NCBI RefSeq assembly: GCF_964213995.1 | Contig: NC_135814.1 | Span: forward strand, 57,846,001 to 57,910,000 | Origin: Mustelus asterias | Taxonomy: Eukaryota | DNA length: 64,000 nucleotides | Direction of reading: 5' to 3' | Shown: positions 24,710-53,766 of the stretch, piece after piece | How positions within the stretch are numbered: position 1 is the first letter of the stretch | Layout of the letters: every line of letters begins with the position of its first letter | The notes under the pieces: model-generated | What the model saw: the letters and a program-made list of their open reading frames with translations, nothing else | Databases searched by the model: none | What the model was told of the DNA's origin: nothing | Translations under genes and position numbers: made by a program

Positions 24710-24810
24710 TGAGCGGATTGATTTACTCGCTGTATTGGTAAATACAATCACGTGAGCCCCGCAACCAATAGCTGCAACTGTAGTCGGCAAAATACTATGA
24801 TTGTTCTGAG
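24710..24810 (+). promoter_or_regulatory. HoxD9 proximal promoter
   Basis: TGATTTAC (Pbx/Hox-type, 24719), ATTGG (24734), TCACGTGA E-box (24748) and CCAAT (24765): the conserved Hox9 upstream block. Confidence 0.75.
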
Positions 24811-32553: not shown

Positions 32554-32980
32554 ATGAGTTCATATTTTGTGAATCCATTCTACTCCAAGTACAAGCCCGG
32601 AGAAGCTCTCAGTCCCACTTACTACGACTGCCGGTTTCCACAGGACGTGACCAGTAGACACACTGTCGTCTATGGTCCCAGCACCGGCGCAGGCTTCCAG
32701 CACCCAGCTCAAGTTCAAGATTTTTACCACCATGGGACATCTGCACTTCCTAACGCTGGCTTTCAGCAGAATCCTTGTGGAATTACGTGTCACGGTGACC
32801 CCTCTAAATTTTACGGATACGATAACTTACAAAGACAGCAAATTTTTACGACACAGCAAGAGGCCGATCTGGTACAATATCCTGACTGTAAATCGTCCAG
32901 CAGTAATATTGGCGAAGAACCAGAACACTTAAATCAGAACTCGTCTCCTACTCAAATGTTTCCCTGGATGAGACCTCAAG
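32554..32980 (+). CDS. HoxD8: HoxD8 exon 1
   Basis: [17 protein letters not shown]...[37 protein letters not shown]...[16 protein letters not shown]; phase-1 donor G|GTTGGA at 32981. Confidence 0.95.
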
Positions 32981-33222
32981 GTTGGATATATTAGAATTAG
33001 CTTCCATCTCACGTTTTACTGCTGCTCAGTTAAATCGCCAAGGTGTTTTAATGCTGTCTATAATAGTCTTGTCTGCTTTTATAGGAGCACTTTCTTTGTA
33101 TGGCATGGCCGTTCAAAGCAAAGATTTGTTCCTATGTGTGTCGCTCTTTGGTTTGCGTGCGTTTGATTCCCCCCCCCCCCCCCTCGTACTGATTGTCTTT
33201 CTGTGATTCTCGTGTTCTTTAG

Positions 33223-33518
33223 CAGCGCCCGGGAGACGCAGAGGGAGACAAACTTACAGCCGTTTCCAAACCCTGGAGTTGGAAAAGGAATTCCTCTTCA
33301 ATCCGTATCTGACTCGGAAGCGAAGGATCGAGGTTTCACATGCCCTAGGACTGACTGAGAGGCAGGTGAAGATTTGGTTTCAGAACAGAAGGATGAAATG
33401 GAAAAAGGAAAACAATAAGGACAAATTTCCCACCTCCCGGAACGACGAGGAGGAGGAAGAGGTGAAAAAAGAGCAGGAAGACCCCGAGCAGGAGACAACA
33501 GAAAAACAGACCAAGTAA
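33223..33518 (+). CDS. HoxD8: HoxD8 exon 2 (homeobox)
   Basis: Acceptor ttctttag|cag. Encodes [70 protein letters not shown] plus an acidic tail. Spliced protein is 240 aa. Confidence 0.96.
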
Positions 33519-33931
33519 CTTTACCCCCTTTGGCCTCCAAGCGAAACGTCATTCAGTTTGCGCTAATTCCACTGTTAAACGTGTTGAGGAGATTGAATCC
33601 TCCAACACAGCCATGGCTGGCTCGATGTAAACAATCCACCTGTTTATTTTTATCGAAGCTCTTTAGAGCCTTAATTCGACATTATTTCTAATGAATCCTG
33701 TGTGCATAATTTTAACATCCCCCCCTCCCCACCCCCCAATCACACCTTGACAGATCAGCCCTCCTATAGAATTTTGCCGCTCCCTTTAAAAGTGGAAAGC
33801 GGCAAAAAAAAATCTCAACAGAAATAGCCATTTGGAATAAAGATTTTATTGCTTTTTAATAAGACGAAAATATGAAATGATATGGTGATTGATTTAGTTT
33901 GCTGATTTTATTTCGCATTTTTGTGAATATA

Positions 33932-33952
33932 CCCAACAACATGAACTGCCTA
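33932..33952 (+). promoter_or_regulatory. miR-196 target site in the HoxD8 3' UTR
   Basis: CCCAACAACATGAACTGCCTA versus the miR-196a complement CCCAACAACATGAAACTACCTA: one missing A and one G:U pair. Confidence 0.85.
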
Positions 33953-34584
33953 ATAGATTGGATAATTTGGAATGTATTGCGAACACACTTAATTAATGAT
34001 AGAGAAAAGGAACCGTGCACTTACGATGTGTCTTAATTACTGTGCGTGTGAAATAATTGGTGGTGTATTGCGGCTGGAAATTCTCAACCATTACCTATCT
34101 CCGATACGCATATTATAAACACAAGCAAAAAAATAAAAATAAAAATGAATTACAAGGTATTCCGCAGCAATAGTCACTTTTTATGATGGTCGAATGTGAT
34201 TAAATTAATAAATGTTGATTAAATTTAATTGTCTACTTGTTTCATTTAACGACGAGCATCTCCAAAAGTAGACCCAACAGGAGTAGAAACTCATTGTGCT
34301 CGGATTGAGAAAGTCAGCCGGAGTGACTGGGTCACTACCTCGCCAGCTTTCTGTAACTGTTTGGAGGTTGTATTGCTCGCAGTGAAATCAGATGTCGTGT
34401 ATTTGTGTTTGTTTAGCTCCGTGGCCACAAGGTGCTTGTCTCCCCATACAGCACCGCCGCTCTGTTACATGGGTGCAAAAGCCTGAAGATGGCGTAATTC
34501 TTTATATGTAGTTATAAAAGTTAATGATATAGCCGATGATTAGAATATTAGTTTATCTGTGCCTCAAGTTAAAAGTCTTCCGAA

Positions 34585-34750
34585 TGACCATTGGCTGATC
34601 AGATCACATGCCTGGCTCATGTGTGGCTAAACCGACGCTGTAAAAGTTAGTGTTTGGTGTTAAACTGCGGTCTACTGTACGCGTATATCAGCAAATCTCG
34701 TAAAACCGGCAATAAAGTTCTAATACTACAAATCACTGGACAAACTGCGG
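34585..34750 (+). promoter_or_regulatory. Orphan Hox7-type promoter/5' UTR (candidate HoxD7 relic)
   Basis: CCATTGG and TCACATG, then TTTGGTGT...TATATCA..AATCTCGTAAAACCG...CTACAAATCA...CAAA, colinear with the recalled HOXB7/HOXA7 leader. No ATG or Hox ORF follows. Confidence 0.65.
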
Positions 34751-37179
34751 ATTTCTGGCCTCCATTTTATTCCTCCCTGCCTTAAAGGCTGGGAGCGAAA
34801 GCAAAATCTTCAGCTGTCGAAGAATCTTCCAGCTTCCCATTACATTTACCTTAATCGGCGATTAGGCCAAGTCGAAACTCTAATAGAATCAGCGCGCGGG
34901 TGTTGCATGCAAACCGCAACCATAGGAATTGGCAATTTCCAATCTCTTCCTTTGCGCGCATGATAAGCCTAAGTTAAGGAAAAGTATTGATAAGAGCAAA
35001 CAGGAAACAATCAAAATCGGGAGAGAAAAACGAAGCAGACATTATACAAATATTAAACAAACAATTGAAATCGCGCGTTTATTTGCAGGAGATAACATTT
35101 ACCCAGTGGATTCCAGAATCCATAACTTCAACCATCTCTGCTGCACCACACAGCTTCGGGCTTGCAATCGAATTGAATTATATGTTAGATAACTAAAAGT
35201 CAAACATCCTCATTCTATCAGGTAGTTTGAGAATGCGAAACAGCAATTAGCTCGTTCAAGGCGGGCAGCAGCTTTGAAATTCCACTTTTGTTTAAACAAA
35301 TCTATGTTGTCAATTTCATATATTCTAAGCTCAACGCACTATTTTAATGCAAAATATATTTTGCAAGCTATATTGGATATCACAATCGGCGCCCGATCAA
35401 AACAGAGAAATAATTTTACAGAATAAATCAACTCGGAATAAATGTTTATTCTGGAAATTGCCTTCTCGTATCTGAAGGGAATTCTCTGTCCCAAATGAAC
35501 AGTTTTCACAAGTCTCTCTTGTTTTACAACCAGATGATTTTCCCCCCAATATTTTTGCACTACGATCCGTTTTTAGAAAACATGCAGATTTAAAGTTTCA
35601 TTCAATCTGTTGGCAAAATGATCCTCACAAAAAAAAAGTTAATTTTGTATCGGCTCCCATTTACGAATCGGACGGTCAAATGCGGGTCTTCACCGTAATA
35701 GCGGCCACGAAAGTGACCGCACATTCACGGCAGATCTAGGCCGTATTGATAGTCTTATCAGATGGTAGGAATCGCCTGTTGTCTCTGAAAGATGATGCAC
35801 TGAACGACGACGCATTGGGTGGAATTCGTATTTTGAGATCAGCGTTGCTTCCACAGATTTTTAATAAAGAATGGAGATCAAAAAAGCCAAACATGCATTA
35901 AAAACTCTCCCCTGAATCATTGCAAAATGTTCAATGTGGTTCTTCAAGAACCTTCATTTGGGTTTTTTTTAAACCTCTGCAGAAATTCCTCCACCACTGA
36001 CTCTCCAACAGCATCCACCCCAGACCGAGACTTTCCCCATCCACACCGAGGGTAACTTGCACGGCCGAACGTTCTATTCAGAATGTCTTCAATTGGAGGC
36101 TGCTCTTCTACTAGTTTTATTCTTATCATAAATTAAAAATGAGTTACCGGCACGTATCTGGTTACGCTGTTTCTGATTTTTTCCCCCCGTAAGATCAGAT
36201 CAAAGCATCAAACCAGAGGCAACCGAGTGATAGATAGCCTTTCACTCGAGTTAAACCAGCGAAAAGCATACGGTTAGGGGGAAAATGTAAATTTTAACCA
36301 TCATTTTTTTCCGCCTCTTAATGAATGGGGTCGCCGTGAATTGGACACGGCGGAGCATTAGGTGCCGAGTCCGCTCACCGCCACTGAAGGGAGAAATTAC
36401 AGAACCAACTGATTTAAAAGGTTTAAATATGTAAACCAACGCCGGAGTCATTTTATCCGGTTAAGACAAACCTTAGTGATCAGTGGCATGTGTTCTTGTA
36501 TTTGATATAGATACACTTTCTACTTCCAATGGATACACGAGGAATATAATACAATGCTCCCTCTGATTGGAATGGAAGTGCAACATATAATTAGTTGCCT
36601 ATATATACACGCCGATATTTAATCTTCAATCTCTCACCTGTGCAGAATGTACCATGCAACATTTAGAATAAATTAATAAATGCTTTTATTATTGATTGCC
36701 ATTTGAAGGAAGGAAGTCGCCGTAGTTTTACTATATTTAATAGGCAAACACGCTTCTGCTTGGTTTATTTCCTACTCTTCACTTGGCCATATCGAATGGG
36801 CTGTGAAAATCTGGGCAATAAGAAAAATAAGTGTATTTCTGCTGCATAACTGGCGGCATTGGAGATTGTGATCAGCCCACATTTAATCATTTGTTGACCT
36901 TGCTTTTTTCCCCCCAAAATTCGAATGTCTCTCCTTTGACTTATTCGAACCATGAACTAAGAAACGGCTAGATGCACACACACAACTGGCAGTGATTTGA
37001 TTGCTGGACTGCGGAATATCTACTGCATTGGGAGAGGTTTCTCCTTATGTTGTCGCGGCATTTCCGCTTATATAGTTAGTTAAGGCGTTCGTTACAATAC
37101 ACACGATAACAAATAGCTGCAGCGAAGAACTCGTTAAAGGAAACATGGCGCTTGCGAGCAGTACTTGTGAAATCCGCAA

Positions 37180-37325
37180 GGAATTGCTGCGAATTCCTTT
37201 TTGTTTGAAGAAAATTTACAACTTTGTAATGGACCTTTTACGACGGAGACTCCTTTCCTATTGGCTGTCATTGGTCATGTGAATCTAGTAACAGCGTTCA
37301 TGGCCTTTTCATGATTTCCCTTGTG
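37180..37325 (+). promoter_or_regulatory. Conserved Hox8/7-6 four-cluster-type element / orphan promoter
   Basis: GAAAATTTACAACTTTGTAAT...TTTTACGA...ATTGGCTGTCATTGGTCATGTG...TTTTCATGATTTCCC resembles the element recalled from the Hox7-Hox6 interval of all four clusters. Confidence 0.65.
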
Positions 37326-39825
37326 AATATTTCACTGCATTCCGCAGCTAACTCGTCTCAAATCGTCTTTTCTGTCAGTATCTCCCCTTGCCTGCTTTTG
37401 TCGTTGGTATTTGACGCTAGCTGCTAGCAAAAAAGGACACTTTCCGCTGTATTCGCGCATTTCAGTCTTTTCCTGTAAAACTATGAGGAAGTCATTCGAC
37501 CCATGCTGGGATTTAGCAACCTGAGCACTCTCACAGACCTCTGACGTCTGTTTACAGTCTTTCATTTACCCTTCAGTTTTCGCTTTACTCCTTTTTTTTT
37601 AAGTCCCTTTATTGATCGAAAAAGTAGAAATGGAATACAACATTCAGCTGGTTACCATTCTGGGGAAGCGCCTTGAGCCGGGTAAGTGCTGTGTTTTGCT
37701 TACGCTCTGCTGTTGCAGATAACACTGCTGTACAGAGGAGGGAAGGGCGTTTGTTTCGTTGGTCGAGTTGCAGGCAACTGTTAGGGAGGTCGAGGAGCGT
37801 TCGACATGTATGAACAAGAGAAATTTGTAAACGGTACATTGGAACCGGGTCCGGGTGGTCATGTCAATTCAAAGGCTGACTGTAGCGCAGGTGAATTATA
37901 TATTTATATTCCGCGGTAGGACGGGGAATTGCGATTCGCGTCTATCTTTGATATGAAAGCTTCGCCACAAAGCAGCTGACATTCGCTCATATGATCCAAG
38001 GCGGAGATTAATCAGATTGCATAGTATACTCATGGGATAATGATTATTGTTATTACCAATAGGAATAGGAATTGTTGTTGCTATTTTGCGGGAGCGATAT
38101 CCGATCATTTGCTGGCGTCTGGGTTCCCTTTTTGCCAATGTGTGGTTTTTCCGCATTCAGTATCTTACGGACGAGGGCACTAGATGGACGCTTTTACGCT
38201 GAGGATTGATTGTAGGGATGAATGATGCACCTTGTGTTAATGATCCGAATAATCCCGTACAGTAATTACAGAAACGATCCGAATTTAGGAGAAATGTTTG
38301 GCCAACATTGTAATGATGACCAACCACGTGACAGAACTTTGCACAAATGAGTGGTACTTGCAATAATGACCCTGCAGTCGATATCACACTATGGTTTCAA
38401 TGTGCTAGTCATGATTCAGTTGCTATTTTAACTTGTGTTTTTTAATGCAAAAGTTTCAAATAATACCAGCCCACCCATCTGATGATTTATTTACTGCAAC
38501 AAGTTGTGCCCAAATTGGATTGCATATTATATATCTATATATATAAATACTAAGCTCTGCAAACTGGGAGTGTTTTTAATTCGGTAGAAACAGTTACATG
38601 TTAAGTGCTTTCACGATGCAAAGCATAACGGTCACTGGAAAAACACCGGCTTTCCTTGTTCCTATTTAGCTGTAACACCTTGCTGCAGAAATAATCACTT
38701 GTTAGCAAGAAATTAATTCATCAATAATTGTTTGTTGTTGTCATATTTTTTCAACGTATTTGTTTGTATGCATTTCCGGTGATTAAATGTTCCTAGAGGG
38801 TTGTTTAGGATTTTTGTAACTTAGCATCAGCGTGAGATAAGGGAGCTTGGAATTGCGTCCATTTGATATTGTCGTATCTGTCACATGACTGTGAATTCGA
38901 TCTTTCAGTATCTAGATTTTTTTTACTGGTAATAGATAAAAATGGCAATGCATTCGTTTGATCATCTGTGAGGCGTATGGTTATGACGGTGTTGATTCAT
39001 TTTTAGCATCTGAAATTCATTTGCAAATGAAAGAAATGTTTTAAAATGGCTGATCTGTATGTGTCTGCATTCGTCGCATAGACCAACTGGCATTTTGTCG
39101 AAGTGCCACAGGGACTGCTTACAATTAGATTATAAAGTGTTACTCGAATTAAATCAATGTGTAAAGATATCATAACATTTGCAATTAAATCGTGTTATTA
39201 TTTATAACATTGTAACTGTTTCGATATTACTTGTGGATTTTTTAGACCAGATCTACAAACAGAAATGTATTCATACCCAAAGTATATCAGGTTGGGAAAG
39301 CTAGTGTTGGTTGTCTTATTGAGAAAGCAGTTTAATCTTTACCTCAACTCTCACGCAACAATTGATAGCGATTGTGTTCATAGTATGTTTTCATATAATT
39401 CTCAAAGCATTGCCCATGTTCATTCCTATGTGTTCATGGCGAAGACAACGGTTCTTAAGCAGGATTTACTAATCAAGCTCTTGTCCGTTCAGTTAACGAG
39501 ATGACTATCTGTTTAGGTTTAATTTTCGATAAACTCAAACTGCGTACCTGGGCTTATGCGATTCCTATATTATGAGATTTTCAAAATATTTGCAAAGGCT
39601 GATTTGTGATTTTCATTTTTTTTCTTGACAATACATCATTTAATATAAACATACAAAAAAAGGAAAAATGAACGGAAAACATTATTATAAATAAATTAGA
39701 TCGGTGTCGTTACCACTTAAGTGACAGTTACAACTTTTAAGATCTAATTATTTAATATATGCTCTTCAATATCACGTAGCCAATAATTTTGCTAAAGGTG
39801 CTAAAATACTCAACAGGAACACCAC

Positions 39826-40721
39826 TATGTGTGTATATGTGTACGTTCATGTCTGTGTACATGTATATGTTTGTGTTTCTGTATTTTTATGTGTGTGTGT
39901 GTCTATGTGTGGCTGTATACCTGTGTGTTTATGTGTGTTTGCATGTTTGTGCATTTATGTGTGCATATATTTGCTTGCATGCATGTGTGTGCTCGTGTGT
40001 GTGTTTTTGTATGAGCATGTGTGTATGTATGTGTGTCTGTATGCATGTGTGTCTGAATGTATATGTGTGTTTTATGCGTGTGTGTATTTGTGTTTGTCTG
40101 TATGTATATCTGTGCCTGTATGTGTGTATTTATGTGTATGTTTGGTTGCATGTATATGTGTGTCAGCATGTGTGTGTATATCTGCTTACATGTTTGCCTG
40201 TATGTATATATATGTCAGGACGTCTGCATGTGTGTGAATGTATGTGTATGTGTGTGTTTATATGTGTGTCTGTGTGCATATGTGTGTCTGCTGTGTGTGT
40301 GCTTATGGGCCTATGTATGTCTGTCGGTATGTGTATGTGTGCCTGTAGATGTGCCTGTATATGTAAGTATGTGTGTGTGTCTGTCTGTATTTGTATACGT
40401 GCCTGTATGTGTATGTGTGTATGTGTATGTGTGCCTATATGTGGCGTTGTCTGTGTGTGTCTGTATGCATGTGTGACTGTATGTGAAATTATGTGTGTGT
40501 GTCTGTATGTATGTGTATGTGTGCCTGTATGTGTAAATATATGCATGTGCATCTGTATGAGTATGTGTGTCTGTATGTGAAATTATGTGTGTATGTGCAC
40601 CTATATGTGTAAGTATGAACGTGCATTTGTCTGTATGTATATGTGTGTCCATATGTGTATATGCGTCCGTATGTGTAAGTATGCACTTGTGTGGATATGT
40701 ATGTGTGCCTATATGTTTGTG
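39826..40721. repeat. About 900 bp degenerate (TG/TA)n low-complexity tract
   Basis: Near-continuous alternating TG/TA/CA. Contains an internal duplication of CTGTATGTGAAATTATGTGTGT (about 40477 and 40571). Confidence 0.95.
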
Positions 40722-43700
40722 AATAAATTGATTTACAATCAGTATCTAGCGGTCTATTTGGAACATTTAACCTGGACGATTTTGCTCACAATGTATCTTC
40801 TACACCGATAATGCTCAAATATAATTTCCAATTTCAATAGAATAATATGAAAATATAATATTATTTATTTAATGGAAACAACTTTTCAACTGAACATACA
40901 TTACAGAATGTAATCAGATCACCGCCAACGTTCAGCGCTTAAAAAAATACACTTTTTTCTAATCTTTATAACATTAGTTTACAAATATAAACAATTCTTC
41001 ATACAAAAACTCCACTAAAGATTTAATCTAGATTTTAACGGGAATAATCCGTTGGAATCCCAGAAACGGTTCGCTCTTCGCAGGGTTATCAAACAAACGA
41101 AATTCCAGACCATGGTCTTCTCAAGGATTTATTACAAGGGAGAACGCGCTGTAAAGTGAAAACACACAGAAAAATGATTGGTATGTGATGCACGCACCGA
41201 TTTCTTCATTTCACAGTGTGAATATGATCCACGATCTCTCCCCGAATAAGAGTAAAATATTTAAATCCTGGCCGTCCTATCGCAAAAGTTTCAAGGATAT
41301 AAACGCGCAGTGGCCCGGAAAAATACTTATATTTTTAAATCGCCAAAGTCAGCACTAGAAACCACACTATTCGATCGAATGTTCAGTAAGAGCGGCCTGA
41401 TTTGTTAATACAAGACAAAGACAATATTTCTTCCACCGACTGTCATGTTAGATTTACGAGCATCAGACAGAGTCACTTGGACAGTGTAGAAACCAGGTTC
41501 TGAGATCAAAATTATAAGAGAGGCCACACAAACCGCACCCCACAAAACAGAAATAAAACCAGACCTATAGAATGGCATTTTATCTCAAACGTACTTGTTA
41601 AAATATTACATTTTCTTGTACTTAAGCTGAACTCAGCGCAGCTGTAAGTTGGAACACATTATGGACCTAGAATCAGAAACCTTTCAATCGAGGCCTATGC
41701 GGTTCTGCACTGAAACTGTACGGCTGAAGCTTTCCCAGTTACTTCGGGTTCATGCAGTTCCAGGCAGTAGTTACACCTCGTGTGCTCCTAACGTGGGTCC
41801 TGATTATACAGATCCTCACTGCAACCGATTTTATTCGGAATCTGCTCAGACTTGAATTATTTTGTAACGCTTTATCCTCCAATTCTTAAAAACTCTGGTA
41901 ACAGAGATCGGGAAGGCGAGCACCAAAAATTTCCCTCGCTCCACGGCAGGAAAATATGTTTAAAAAAATCATTGCCAGAGCGTAATAATTAAATATTATT
42001 TTGTATGAGAAATATTCGTGCGTGGCGTGGCCACATAACCCGGGGGTTCATATTGTACAGACTGATACCCTTATTAAAGTGGTGAAAGGAACATTCTTTT
42101 TACATCAATGAAAATCAACAGACAAACAAATCTAAATATTTAGATGCAATCCACCTGTTTAAATATTACTGCGATCTTCGGCGAACTTTTGGCAAGGTCT
42201 TCAATCACATTAATACAGTCGATATTTGACATCACTACCCCTCGTTAACGACGCCTTTCCGGATCGCATTCTAGCATTCATACGCCGCTTATTAATCAAA
42301 CCGGGGAGGGGGGAGACAAATCTTGATTTCAAAAATTCCATTTATTGCTCTGTGAATTTCTTGCATTTCTAGCCGGCTCAAGCTGGCTCGATGTGTTTAA
42401 AGTGTAACTACCACTGTAGAGATCAAAAGTGCAGCAACTGCAAATGTAACATTCCTTTCCCAAATGTGCAAATATTTGCCGAAGGCTATCTTTCTAAAGA
42501 AATATTTTTAATGAGCACAACATATACATTGAATGTACATCAGGCCCCAGAGGTTGATACAATTGCCACGACCCCAACACAGTGCAAAACATTGATTGTA
42601 CAGAAGGAAACTCTTATTAAAATCCACGATTCATTGCGAGGTGAAAATAGAAATAGAATAGAAATCAGACACTCCGCTTAGCTTCTCGATGTGTCTGTCA
42701 GGACTGGTGGCAATGTCGACTCAACCAGTCACAGAGTAAAATACAAAGTTACTTTGTAATTATTTTCAAATATAAGTTACCGATGAGGGAATTTTCACAA
42801 TAACTTCACTGTAGTGTTAATGTAAGCCGATTCGTGACACGAATAAATAAACTTTAAAAACAGAGAGCACATATTTATGCAGAATTCCGAATTTATTGGA
42901 CAGGGTTCCGCCAAAGAAGGAATACATACGTGCGCATGAAAGCTAGTGGGGAATATCCTAGAGCTGATTTTAATGTACCATCTGTGAAGATATAAAATGA
43001 ATATATAAATAATTTCAACGCAGTTTTCTACGAATGCAATCCATTCCAATCATTCTGAGCCCTAGCGACCCGAAGAAAGTGGGGAGGCTGCCTTATGAGT
43101 CGTATGTTTGAATACGTTCTCTTTCTTAGAAAATAGCCTCCACGGCCTCGTTTCGCACAAAAGGGAATCTGAAAATCCCAAATCTTTTGATTAAAAGTCA
43201 GAATGGGATGTCTGCTATTTGAAGTAATTACTCCGAGTATGCATTATCTATTTCCAACTAGGCAGTCCGCCGAGGATCAAATTATTTATTTACAGGCAGC
43301 ATCGAACTAAGGGGTCAAGTACGCAGTTAATCCGAAGGAAAGGTGTTCTTATCAACTGAATTTTAAAAAGAGGGGTTAACAGTGTCACGAAATAAGTTGA
43401 ATTATTGTGCTAGAAGTTTTCATAATAAAAGCATTGGATAAACTTTTGAAGTTTTTAAGTGGTCGTATATTTCGTCAGCAAATGCCAATTCGGCGAGTTA
43501 ATTTGCACGTGTATTGTACACAAATATACACTTTAATGATATTACGAAACGGAATGTATGTATTTACAGAAACATTTTGCATCTGAGTTCCTATACATGT
43601 CGCCAGCTGCATAATTCATAATTTTAGATAACAGAAAGCAGCATCGAAACCCAGATATTATCATAGCTTAAACCGTGATCCCATTTAGAAATGAACCCGT

Positions 43701-43839
43701 TTCGAAAAATATTTAACAAACCGTGTGAACATTAAAGCCGCTTTTGGATTTGCTTTATTGATGTGAACCTGGCTTTCTTCATGTTTGCCAGCAGGAGGCG
43801 CTATAGGACCATGCTCGCTAAATCACAGCAAATATTCTC

Positions 43840-44046
43840 ACTGCATGAATTACCCCCAGGGTCAGGCATAAGAATTTACGACTGGTCAACAAAAACACGT
43901 GATCCAAACTTGTGTCCCATATTTGGTTGTATACGTAGAAGGCAGAGAAATGACATGTGCCTTTTATTTCCATATTTCATTATATATCGCGCGGTCTAGT
44001 GGCGAATAAACGTCTAAGAACCACAAATCAAACCCCTAAAAGGCAG
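43840..44046 (+). promoter_or_regulatory. HoxD5 proximal promoter / 5' UTR
   Basis: ATGAATTACC...ATTTACGACTGGTCAACAAAAACACGTGAT...CCATATTTGG (CArG-form, 43917-43926): the typical Hox5 upstream block. Confidence 0.75.
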
Positions 44047-44554
44047 ATGAGTTCCTACTTTTTAAACTCCTTCTCAGGTCGCTACCAAAATGGCCACGAT
44101 TATCAGTTGCAGAGTTATGGAAATGCAGCTTCTGTGGGCGAGCATTTTAGGGAGTCGACGATGCTGTCTGCCAGGTATGGCTATGATTACACCGGGATAG
44201 ACCTCAGCATGACTCGCTCTAACTCAAATCTTTGTGGAGACAGTGAAAGGTCTGCCAACTACCTGCAAACAGCCAATAACACCTTTCATAGCTCATCTGG
44301 GATGAAAATGAAGTCTCCTGATCCTGCCTTCTGCTCGGCATCTTTATTAAGCCCATCAGGCAGTGCTATTAAGACGGGGGCCACTGTCACAGAGTCCAAT
44401 CACTCATACAGCGGTGACCAGGACACTTCGCCGGTTAACGATGGACATCCTAAGGGGACGGACAGCCCCAAACCGGAAAGTGAGCAACTGGACAAGGATC
44501 AAGCCCTACAGATGCAGATATACCCATGGATGAAAAAGATGCACCTTAACCAAG
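44047..44554 (+). CDS. HoxD5: HoxD5 exon 1
   Basis: [21 protein letters not shown]...[12 protein letters not shown] (Hox5 N-terminus)...[13 protein letters not shown]; phase-1 donor G|GTACGA at 44555. Confidence 0.94.
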
Positions 44555-44916
44555 GTACGATATTTGGCTTTTTGATGCGTTTTAAATTTGATCGAATTGA
44601 TTTTCAGACTGAGAAATAAAATAGCAAGCATGAGCTAAATATTTGAGGACTACATGTCAAAATATGACAATTTGAATCATATCGGATTATCAGACTGTTG
44701 ATATTAATTATAACAGCAATTATGCCAGAGATTGCACCATGCTTTACACCATACCTCCTGAATGTGAACATTTGTAAATTATTTTAACACATCTATCCAA
44801 ATAATTGAAGATTTTATTCGAGAATTAAGCATGGATGTATTTGTCTGAAATTGTATAACTTCATAATTTCCATTGCATTGATGCGTGTAGTAACGCACCT
44901 TTTAACTTTTTCTTAA

Positions 44917-45168
<252 letters not shown>

Positions 45169-52331: not shown

Positions 52332-52413
52332 CGTCGTCTATATATACCCTGTAGAACCGAATTTGTGTGATGTTTCTGTCACAGATTCGTTTCTAGGGGA
52401 GTCTATGGTCGAT
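52332..52413 (+). ncRNA. MIR10B: miR-10b precursor hairpin (mature 5p 52345-52367; star about 52381-52402)
   Basis: Mature TACCCTGTAGAACCGAATTTGTG with complementary arm ACAGATTCGTTTCTAGGGGAGT, at the canonical position between Hox5 and Hox4. Confidence 0.97.
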
Positions 52414-53639: not shown

Positions 53640-53766
53640 ACGCCATTGGCTCGCACGGTCACATGGGTGACTAACTTTATTCAGTTGACAGCAAGTAGGA
53701 GGGCTTTATGGAACGGGAAAAAAAGACAACTGGAGAAAAATTAGTATTTTCCACCTTCAGAAATTA
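53640..53766 (+). promoter_or_regulatory. HoxD4 proximal promoter plus splice acceptor before the ATG
   Basis: CCATTGG (53643), GTCACATGG (53658) and AACTTTATTCAGTTGACAG; acceptor TATTTTCCACCTTCAG| (53760) 6 nt before the ATG. Confidence 0.75.

What the first reader, a model, noticed from the sequence alone, without database searches (positions are those of the whole stretch)
34585..34750. Ghost HoxD7 promoter and 5' UTR retained where the gene was lost
Seen: 1.1 kb after HoxD8, CCATTGG and TCACATG are followed by TTTGGTGTTAAACTG..TCTA..TATATCAGCAAATCTCGTAAAACCGGCAATAAA...CTACAAATCACTGGACAAA. From memory, the HOXB7 leader reads TTTGGTGTAAATCTG..TCTA..TATATCAAGGAATCTCGTAAAACCGACACTAAA...CTACAAATCATCCGGCCAAATT-ATG. 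Here the ATG position (about 34747) reads GCG and no Hox ORF follows. HoxD7 is not known in jawed vertebrates, so this block has outlived its gene for a very long time. That implies selection as a promoter for a non-coding or long-leader transcript, or as an enhancer.
Basis: partly seen in the sequence, partly recalled or inferred. Interest (0 to 1): 0.78.

Follow-up and report, generated by a model that had tools for sequence, protein, structure and literature searches.

The report
Leftover Hox7 promoter in shark HoxD
In a shark's HoxD gene cluster, a 160-base stretch still matches the front end of the HoxB7 gene although no trace of Hox7 coding sequence follows; it was likely kept as a docking site for transcription factors, and it is probably an element already described in 2000.

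Summary
The window is a shark HoxD cluster (D12-D8, D5, miR-10, D4). 1.07 kb after the HoxD8 stop lie a CCAAT box, two E-box variants and a stretch matching a published HoxB7 5' UTR primer at 18 of 20 letters (sole hit in 64 kb; 0 of 100 shuffles). The expected ATG is missing and no Hox7 exon 1 or homeobox remnant was found between D8 and D5. Two corrections: the CCAAT/E-box pair is a general Hox core promoter (also at D11, D10, D9, D4), not a Hox7 mark; and the long-leader HoxD5 isoforms annotated in two sharks use an exon ending at 37681, which has its own CCAAT/E-box promoter at 37260, so they need not start at this block. The part shared with HoxB7 is an optimal HOXB13-type site followed by an optimal CDX2 site, which favours selection on DNA binding. 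From recall (papers not held), this is the 'H8/7-6 four-cluster sequence' of Kim et al. 2000, found in horn shark and human. Expression of the block was not tested. Real and ancient, probably known; function open.

The parts
34588..34594 (+). Reverse CCAAT box (ATTGG), NF-Y-type site
   Evidence: Sequence; CAAT box beside an E-box described for Hoxa9 in PMC9456764; NF-Y as the binder is recalled
34604..34624 (+). Two inverted E-box variants (CACATG 34605-34610, CATGTG 34618-34623)
   Evidence: mouse Hoxa7 promoter needs two E-boxes (PMC9456764 Fig. 4 legend); these are not the CACGTG form
34653..34746 (+). Remnant of the Hox7-type 5' leader
   Evidence: HoxB7 primer match 18 of 20 at 34697-34716; last part resembles the HoxD5 leader by local alignment, not significant (30 of 200 shuffles)
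34697..34716 (+). Core shared with HoxB7: CTCGTAAA (optimal HOXB13 site) then GCAATAAA (optimal CDX2 site; also holds an AATAAA hexamer at 34711)
   Evidence: Sequence; optima from PMC5896879; TCGTAAAA alone is not enriched in the window (3 found, 3.3 expected)
34747..34767 (+). Place where the Hox7 ATG is expected; none present (GCG at 34747)
   Evidence: Primer geometry and ATG scan
32554..33518 (+). HoxD8, upstream neighbour (paralog label recalled from its sequence and order)
37260..37281 (+). Second orphan Hox-type core promoter: two ATTGG boxes and TCATGTG; not alignable to the block
   Evidence: alignment to block: 166 of 300 shuffles score as high
37630..37681 (+). Coding end of an upstream exon spliced into HoxD5 in annotated isoforms of two sharks; strongest donor of 34640-43900 at 37682; possible acceptor at 37576
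   Evidence: 17 of 17 and 14 of 17 residues match; donor and acceptor scans
44047..45120 (+). HoxD5 (to the end of the homeobox), with an internal acceptor at 44077 that receives the upstream exon
   Evidence: 8 of 9 hits are named Hox-D5 of cartilaginous fishes, 1 unnamed; junction frame fits

Best explanation
This block is likely what remains of the promoter and 5' leader of a Hox7 gene lost from the HoxD cluster, and it was likely kept because transcription factors still bind it as DNA, so that it would act as a promoter-like regulatory site for neighbouring Hox transcription units rather than as the front of a protein-coding gene. Shown: the motifs, the HoxB7 leader match, the missing ATG, no detectable Hox7 coding remnant. 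Inferred: NF-Y binds the CCAAT box, USF/TFE-type bHLH factors the E-boxes, and CDX or posterior HOX proteins the CTCGTAAA-GCAATAAA core. In HoxA7/B7 these sites would serve the gene's own promoter. In HoxD the same sites would open chromatin at the paralog-7 position and feed input to HoxD8 (1-2 kb upstream) or to the distal promoter at 37260 that likely drives long D5/D3 transcripts. Some short non-coding initiation at the block is expected of such a site but is not needed by this model.
For: HoxB7 5' UTR primer match, unique and above chance, with paralog controls negative or at chance. Position directly 3' of Hox8 and spacing to the expected ATG. No coding remnant: homeobox DNA profile 0 hits at E<=10 in 33520-44046; Hox7 exon 1 profile best E 0.94 there, while it finds exon 1 of D8 and D5 in the whole window (E 0.0013, 0.0003; D4 missed). 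ATTGG-to-E-box pairs occur at 6 places on the + strand: 4 at Hox starts, 2 orphan (this block, 37260); control mean 1.4, max 4 in 100 (motif set chosen after seeing the data). Hoxa leader regions work as E-box/CAAT promoters (PMC9456764). The shared core equals the HOXB13 optimum and is followed by the CDX2 optimum (PMC5896879). No RNA fold (z +1.45), no Rfam match at E<=1. The annotated long HoxD5 isoforms are explained by the exon ending at 37681 and its own promoter, like the mouse Hoxa5/Hoxa3 D2 promoter 2.3 kb 3' of Hoxa7 (PMC2868907).
Against: No binding, chromatin or expression data for the block were obtained. Only 20-23 nt could be compared with a real Hox7 leader, and with HoxB7 only. 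The CDX2-type site differs from the HoxB7 primer at 2 letters, so it is not shared. TCGTAAAA is not enriched in the window. The intact order CCAAT, E-box, leader is what a still-firing promoter would keep. A possible acceptor at 37576 allows the downstream exon to be joined to a first exon from the block. No orthologous block from another species was aligned. Slow evolution in cartilaginous fishes inflates conservation among them (PMC2746220).
Confidence: 0.55

Rival explanations
1. The block is a working promoter: it fires near 34630-34680 and supplies a non-coding first exon spliced to the exon ending at 37681 or further on, giving D5/D4/D3 and miR-10 a paralog-7-like domain.
For: Complete core-promoter layout like that of D4, D9, D10, D11. 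Possible acceptors at 37378 and 37576 and one 7 nt before the D4 ATG. Shared upstream promoters are known in Hox clusters (PMC1831499; PMC2868907).
Against: Best donor within 1.9 kb after the block scores 2.8 (35222) against 7.1 at 37682, although the window's own donors span 0.3-5.6, so this is weak. Six AATAAA hexamers lie between 34600 and 37260. The annotated upstream exon has its own promoter 350 nt before its ATG.
Confidence: 0.27
2. The block acts in RNA as the far end of a long HoxD8 3' UTR, with the AATAAA at 34711 as a distal poly(A) signal.
For: Same strand, 1.1-1.2 kb after the D8 stop; AATAAA at 34711 where the HoxB7 primer differs.
Against: Four earlier AATAAA hexamers (33836, 34132, 34138, 34207). 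No fold. Does not explain the CCAAT/E-box layout.
Confidence: 0.06
3. It is a functionless remnant that has not yet decayed in a slowly evolving shark genome.
For: High background conservation in chondrichthyan Hox clusters (PMC2746220).
Against: Both coding exons are undetectable while the core still matches a primer designed for HoxB7 of lobe-finned fishes and tetrapods, a paralog split by the early vertebrate genome duplications. A clean deletion of the gene body could remove the exons but would not freeze the leader.
Confidence: 0.06
4. It descends from a lost HoxD6, or from a generic central-Hox promoter, not from Hox7.
For: HoxD6 is also absent here. By eye the HoxB6 primer's middle resembles 34720-34738 with a gap. 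The 3' end resembles the HoxD5 leader weakly.
Against: HoxB6 primer gives no hit at 3 mismatches, HoxB7 primer does at 2. The block lies directly after Hox8.
Confidence: 0.05

Closest known systems
H8/7-6 'four-cluster sequence' (Kim et al. 2000 PNAS 97:1655; discussed by Santini et al. 2003; Matsunami et al. 2010) - recalled, texts not held
   Same: As recalled: about 140-200 nt, 3' of Hox8, at the proximal promoter of Hoxa7/Hoxb7 and at the same place in HoxC and HoxD where Hox7 is missing; first seen in horn shark. One search confirms three CNSs shared by all four clusters were reported in 2010; one search confirms the Kim paper's citation.
   Different: No difference known. Identity could not be checked because neither text nor sequence was available.
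HoxB7/HoxA7 proximal promoter and 5' leader
   Same: CCAAT plus two E-box-like sites; 18 of 20 letters of the HoxB7 5' UTR primer; spacing to the ATG position.
   Different: No ATG, no exon 1, no homeobox; E-boxes are CACATG/CATGTG forms.
Distal shared Hox promoters: mouse Hoxa5/Hoxa3 D2 (PMC2868907), HOXC4-5-6 common promoter and HOXD4-3 transcript (PMC1831499)
   Same: A promoter without its own coding gene between Hox8/7 and Hox6/5 that feeds downstream genes.
   Different: D2 lies 3' of the Hox7 position. In this window that description fits the second element at 37260, not the block. Sequence homology to D2 was not testable.

Membership tests
Hox7 promoter/5' leader paralog | Sequence match to a Hox7 5' UTR above chance | tested here: met
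   18 of 20, sole hit, 0 of 100 shuffles; one 23-nt HoxB7 primer only
Hox7 promoter/5' leader paralog | Closer to Hox7 than to other Hox leaders | tested here: inconclusive
   HoxB6 and HoxB1 primers negative or chance; no significant alignment to D11, D10, D8, D5, D4 upstream regions (D9 not aligned); full Hox5/6/7 leaders not available
Hox7 promoter/5' leader paralog | Syntenic position directly 3' of Hox8, same strand | tested here: met
Hox7 promoter/5' leader paralog | CCAAT box next to E-box(es) | tested here: met
   feature is general to Hox promoters
Hox7 promoter/5' leader paralog | Initiates transcription | not tested
   No reads were laid on the block
H8/7-6 four-cluster sequence | Located between Hox8 and the next 3' gene, about 1 kb after Hox8 (recalled definition) | tested here: met
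   1.07 kb after the D8 stop
H8/7-6 four-cluster sequence | Aligns to the published element in clusters A, B, C and D | not testable with these tools
   Papers not held; name not found in the library; no vertebrate DNA among 14 of 14 metagenome hits
Hox coding pseudogene | Recognisable decayed exon 1 or homeobox | tested here: not met
   best homeodomain tblastn hit E 0.037 at 34787-34897 among 7 queries, with no DNA-level hit
Distal promoter of polycistronic Hox transcripts (Hoxa5 D2 type) | First exon with a donor spliced to downstream Hox exons | tested here: inconclusive
   Met for the exon ending at 37681; no link shown from the block
Structured non-coding RNA | Stable fold or Rfam match | tested here: not met
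   z +1.45, 189 of 200 shuffles fold as well; 0 matches
CTCF boundary site | CTCF consensus (recalled) in the block | tested here: not met
   One hit in the window at 1 mismatch, at 43788, not in the block

The most novel reading that the evidence does not exclude
The block is a still-firing ghost gene: the HoxD7 promoter, gated by CDX and posterior HOX proteins, makes the first exon of long transcripts that carry D5, miR-10, D4 and D3 into a paralog-7 time slot and domain. HoxD would then keep two coding-less promoters (34.6 and 37.3 kb) that preserve the promoter ladder of the ancestral cluster after its genes were lost, which would make it testable whether colinearity counts promoters rather than genes.
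Probability: 0.2. Interest if true: 0.6.

Novelty: already known. Interest (0 to 1): 0.27.

Why it matters
A promoter that outlives its gene by hundreds of millions of years argues that Hox clusters are held together by shared regulatory DNA as well as by coding genes. If my recall is right this was noted in 2000, so the element is no surprise to specialists. I know of no deletion test of the HoxD or HoxC copy (recall; not searched as such), so its function seems open. The small additions here are that the retained core is an optimal posterior-HOX site followed by a CDX site, and that shark long-leader HoxD5 isoforms point to a second orphan promoter 2.7 kb further on.

Tried and rejected
Own genome: none held, so HoxA7/B7 of this species could not be compared. 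Sequencing runs for 33600-36500: 16 listed, no RNA holder listed on record; ten guessed-RNA runs hold small shares (0.07-0.17) and four other runs 0.23-0.34; none was laid, so this is no evidence either way. Metagenome scan for the core motif: 14 of 14 loci were chance matches with no Hox context. 'HoxD7' paper hits: the 3 of 5 opened were the HOXD70 scoring matrix. Ten library searches found no paper naming this element; the library lacks most subscription papers, so this says nothing about novelty. Mouse Hoxa7 leader in the supplement of PMC9456764 is cut at 400 of 1168 letters, before the part that matters. No leader hit in the 4 supplement files of PMC8892498. Supplements of PMC1831499 unavailable. 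The 79-codon open frame at 34724-34960 is ordinary: 15 + strand frames of 70 codons or more lie between D8 and D5, several in a repeat. No N-terminally extended Hox7 protein that would reveal the leader was among the 119 fetched. No DR5/DR2 retinoic-acid consensus without mismatch in the window. Earlier findings of this scan: nothing relevant.

Full report
Setting. Seven homeoboxes lie on the + strand in the order 12, 11, 10, 9, 8, 5, 4, with miR-10 at 52338-52409 as the only Rfam match. The gene at 44047 is HoxD5: 8 of 9 relatives found are named Hox-D5 of sharks, rays or chimaera, one is unnamed, and the best is identical over 94% of exon 1. The window is therefore a shark HoxD cluster. The other paralog labels, and the absence of HoxD6 and HoxD7 from all jawed vertebrates, are recalled; the review passages seen (PMC3707753) do not state it.

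Observation. A full-text search for the block's 12-letter core gave 2 papers; in one, it is the start of the HoxB7 5' UTR primer used across lobe-finned fishes and tetrapods (PMC3038165, passages). Its first 20 letters match 34697-34716 with 2 mismatches, the only hit in the window; 0 of 100 shuffles gave any. The HoxB6 primer gave no hit and the HoxB1 primer a chance-level hit elsewhere. The primer's 440-460 bp product and a median 390 nt from ATG to the PWM motif (109 of 119 Hox7 proteins, nearly all HoxB7) put the expected ATG at 34747-34767. None is there; the next is at 34907.

No coding remnant. A DNA profile of the window's seven homeoboxes finds nothing at E<=10 between D8 and D5. A Hox7 exon 1 profile finds D8 and D5 exon 1 in the whole window (D4 missed) but nothing better than E 0.94 in the interval; tblastn with 119 Hox7 proteins gave 2 hits at E<=0.1, both weak. 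One homeodomain tblastn hit just after the block (E 0.037, 7 queries) has no DNA support and is treated as chance. This is a cis-regulatory remnant, not a coding pseudogene.

What is general and what is Hox7-like. The CCAAT/E-box pair is the common Hox core promoter. ATTGG followed by an E-box form occurs at six + strand places: before D11, D10, D9 and D4 (4 of the 6 genes whose start is in the window; D8 and D5 lack it), at the block, and at 37260. A first-order control gives mean 1.4, maximum 4 in 100 (motif set chosen after looking). Akirtava et al. show that such Hoxa regions are E-box/CAAT promoters and that Hoxa7 needs two E-boxes (PMC9456764, passages); the block has two inverted variants. 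The Hox7-specific evidence is the primer core. That core is CTCGTAAA, an optimal HOXB13 site, followed 4 letters later by GCAATAAA, an optimal CDX2 site (PMC5896879, passages). The motif is not enriched in the window, so its weight comes from being the part shared with HoxB7. It offers a reason why a leader would survive without a reading frame: selection on the DNA site. The block does not fold and matches no RNA family.

Long-leader transcripts exist here but point elsewhere. NCBI HoxD5 isoforms of Mustelus asterias and Scyliorhinus torazame (4 of the 13 members of that cluster; the latter named 'Hox-D3a isoform') have a 17-residue N-terminus that maps to 37630-37680 at 17 of 17 and 14 of 17 residues. 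It ends at the strongest donor of 34640-43900 (37682) and joins an acceptor inside D5 exon 1 in frame. That such models rest on RNA-seq, and that the D3a name means a shared exon, is inferred from how NCBI annotates. This exon has its own double-CCAAT/E-box site at 37260-37281, which does not align to the block. The arrangement parallels the mouse D2 promoter, 2.3 kb 3' of Hoxa7, whose first exon feeds Hoxa5 and Hoxa3 transcripts (PMC2868907, passages and discussion); shared promoters are also listed for HOXC6-5-4 and HOXD4-3 (PMC1831499, passages). Expression of the block itself was not tested.

Mechanism. Most likely (0.55 for the whole chain; about 0.9 for Hox7 descent alone): after the coding gene was lost, the paralog-7 promoter stayed because NF-Y, bHLH and CDX/HOX sites in it also serve neighbours, HoxD8 or the distal promoter at 37260. 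Binding and effect on neighbours are inferred, not shown.

Known or new. I recall this element as the 'H8/7-6 four-cluster sequence' of Kim et al. 2000 (horn shark HoxM/HoxN against human), described at the Hoxa7/Hoxb7 proximal promoter and at the same place in HoxC and HoxD, and treated again by Santini et al. 2003 and Matsunami et al. 2010. None of the three texts is held, and ten library searches did not name it. The only tool support is Matsunami and Saitou 2013 (PMC3595034, passages): three CNSs conserved in all four Hox clusters were reported. I put about 85% on this being one of them. Other papers opened as passages without bearing on the block: PMC2080641, PMC8892498 (plus supplement search), PMC2746220, PMC4510006 (no HoxD intergenic transcription in RA-treated ES cells, a setting where HoxD responds weakly), bioRxiv 2021.08.13.456193 (passages and one section), and the three HOXD70 papers. 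Figures, the cut Hoxa7 supplement cell and the unavailable Mainguy supplement may bear on paralogy and start sites.

Verdict. Real, ancient and well spotted, but probably known for 25 years. Interest 0.27; the open part is function.

Noticed in passing
window 37236-37281 and 37577-37681: Second orphan Hox-type promoter (two ATTGG, TCATGTG, a TCGTAAAA site on the - strand at 37236) and an upstream exon giving shark HoxD5 an alternative 17-residue N-terminus conserved in two shark genera; likely the counterpart of the mouse Hoxa5/Hoxa3 D2 promoter.
   Followed up: partly
window 39850-40680: About 0.8 kb degenerate TG-rich tandem repeat between D8 and D5; Hox clusters are usually repeat-poor (PMC1831499).
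   Followed up: no
window 43788-43801: The only CTCF-like consensus hit in the window at 1 mismatch, 260 nt before the HoxD5 ATG; may correspond to mouse CBS1 between Hoxd8 and Hoxd4.
   Followed up: no
window 34689-34710: By eye, the mouse Hoxb3 long leader NM_001079869 in the supplement of PMC9456764 shares 18 of 22 letters with this part of the block; no second copy in the window. May be chance or a motif shared by distal Hox leaders.
   Followed up: partly
window 53744-53766: Pyrimidine tract and AG 7 nt before the HoxD4 ATG, an acceptor that would admit upstream non-coding exons.
   Followed up: no
window 24734-24769: HoxD9 promoter has a CACGTG E-box flanked by CCAAT boxes in both orientations, a layout that could drive transcription both ways.
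   Followed up: no
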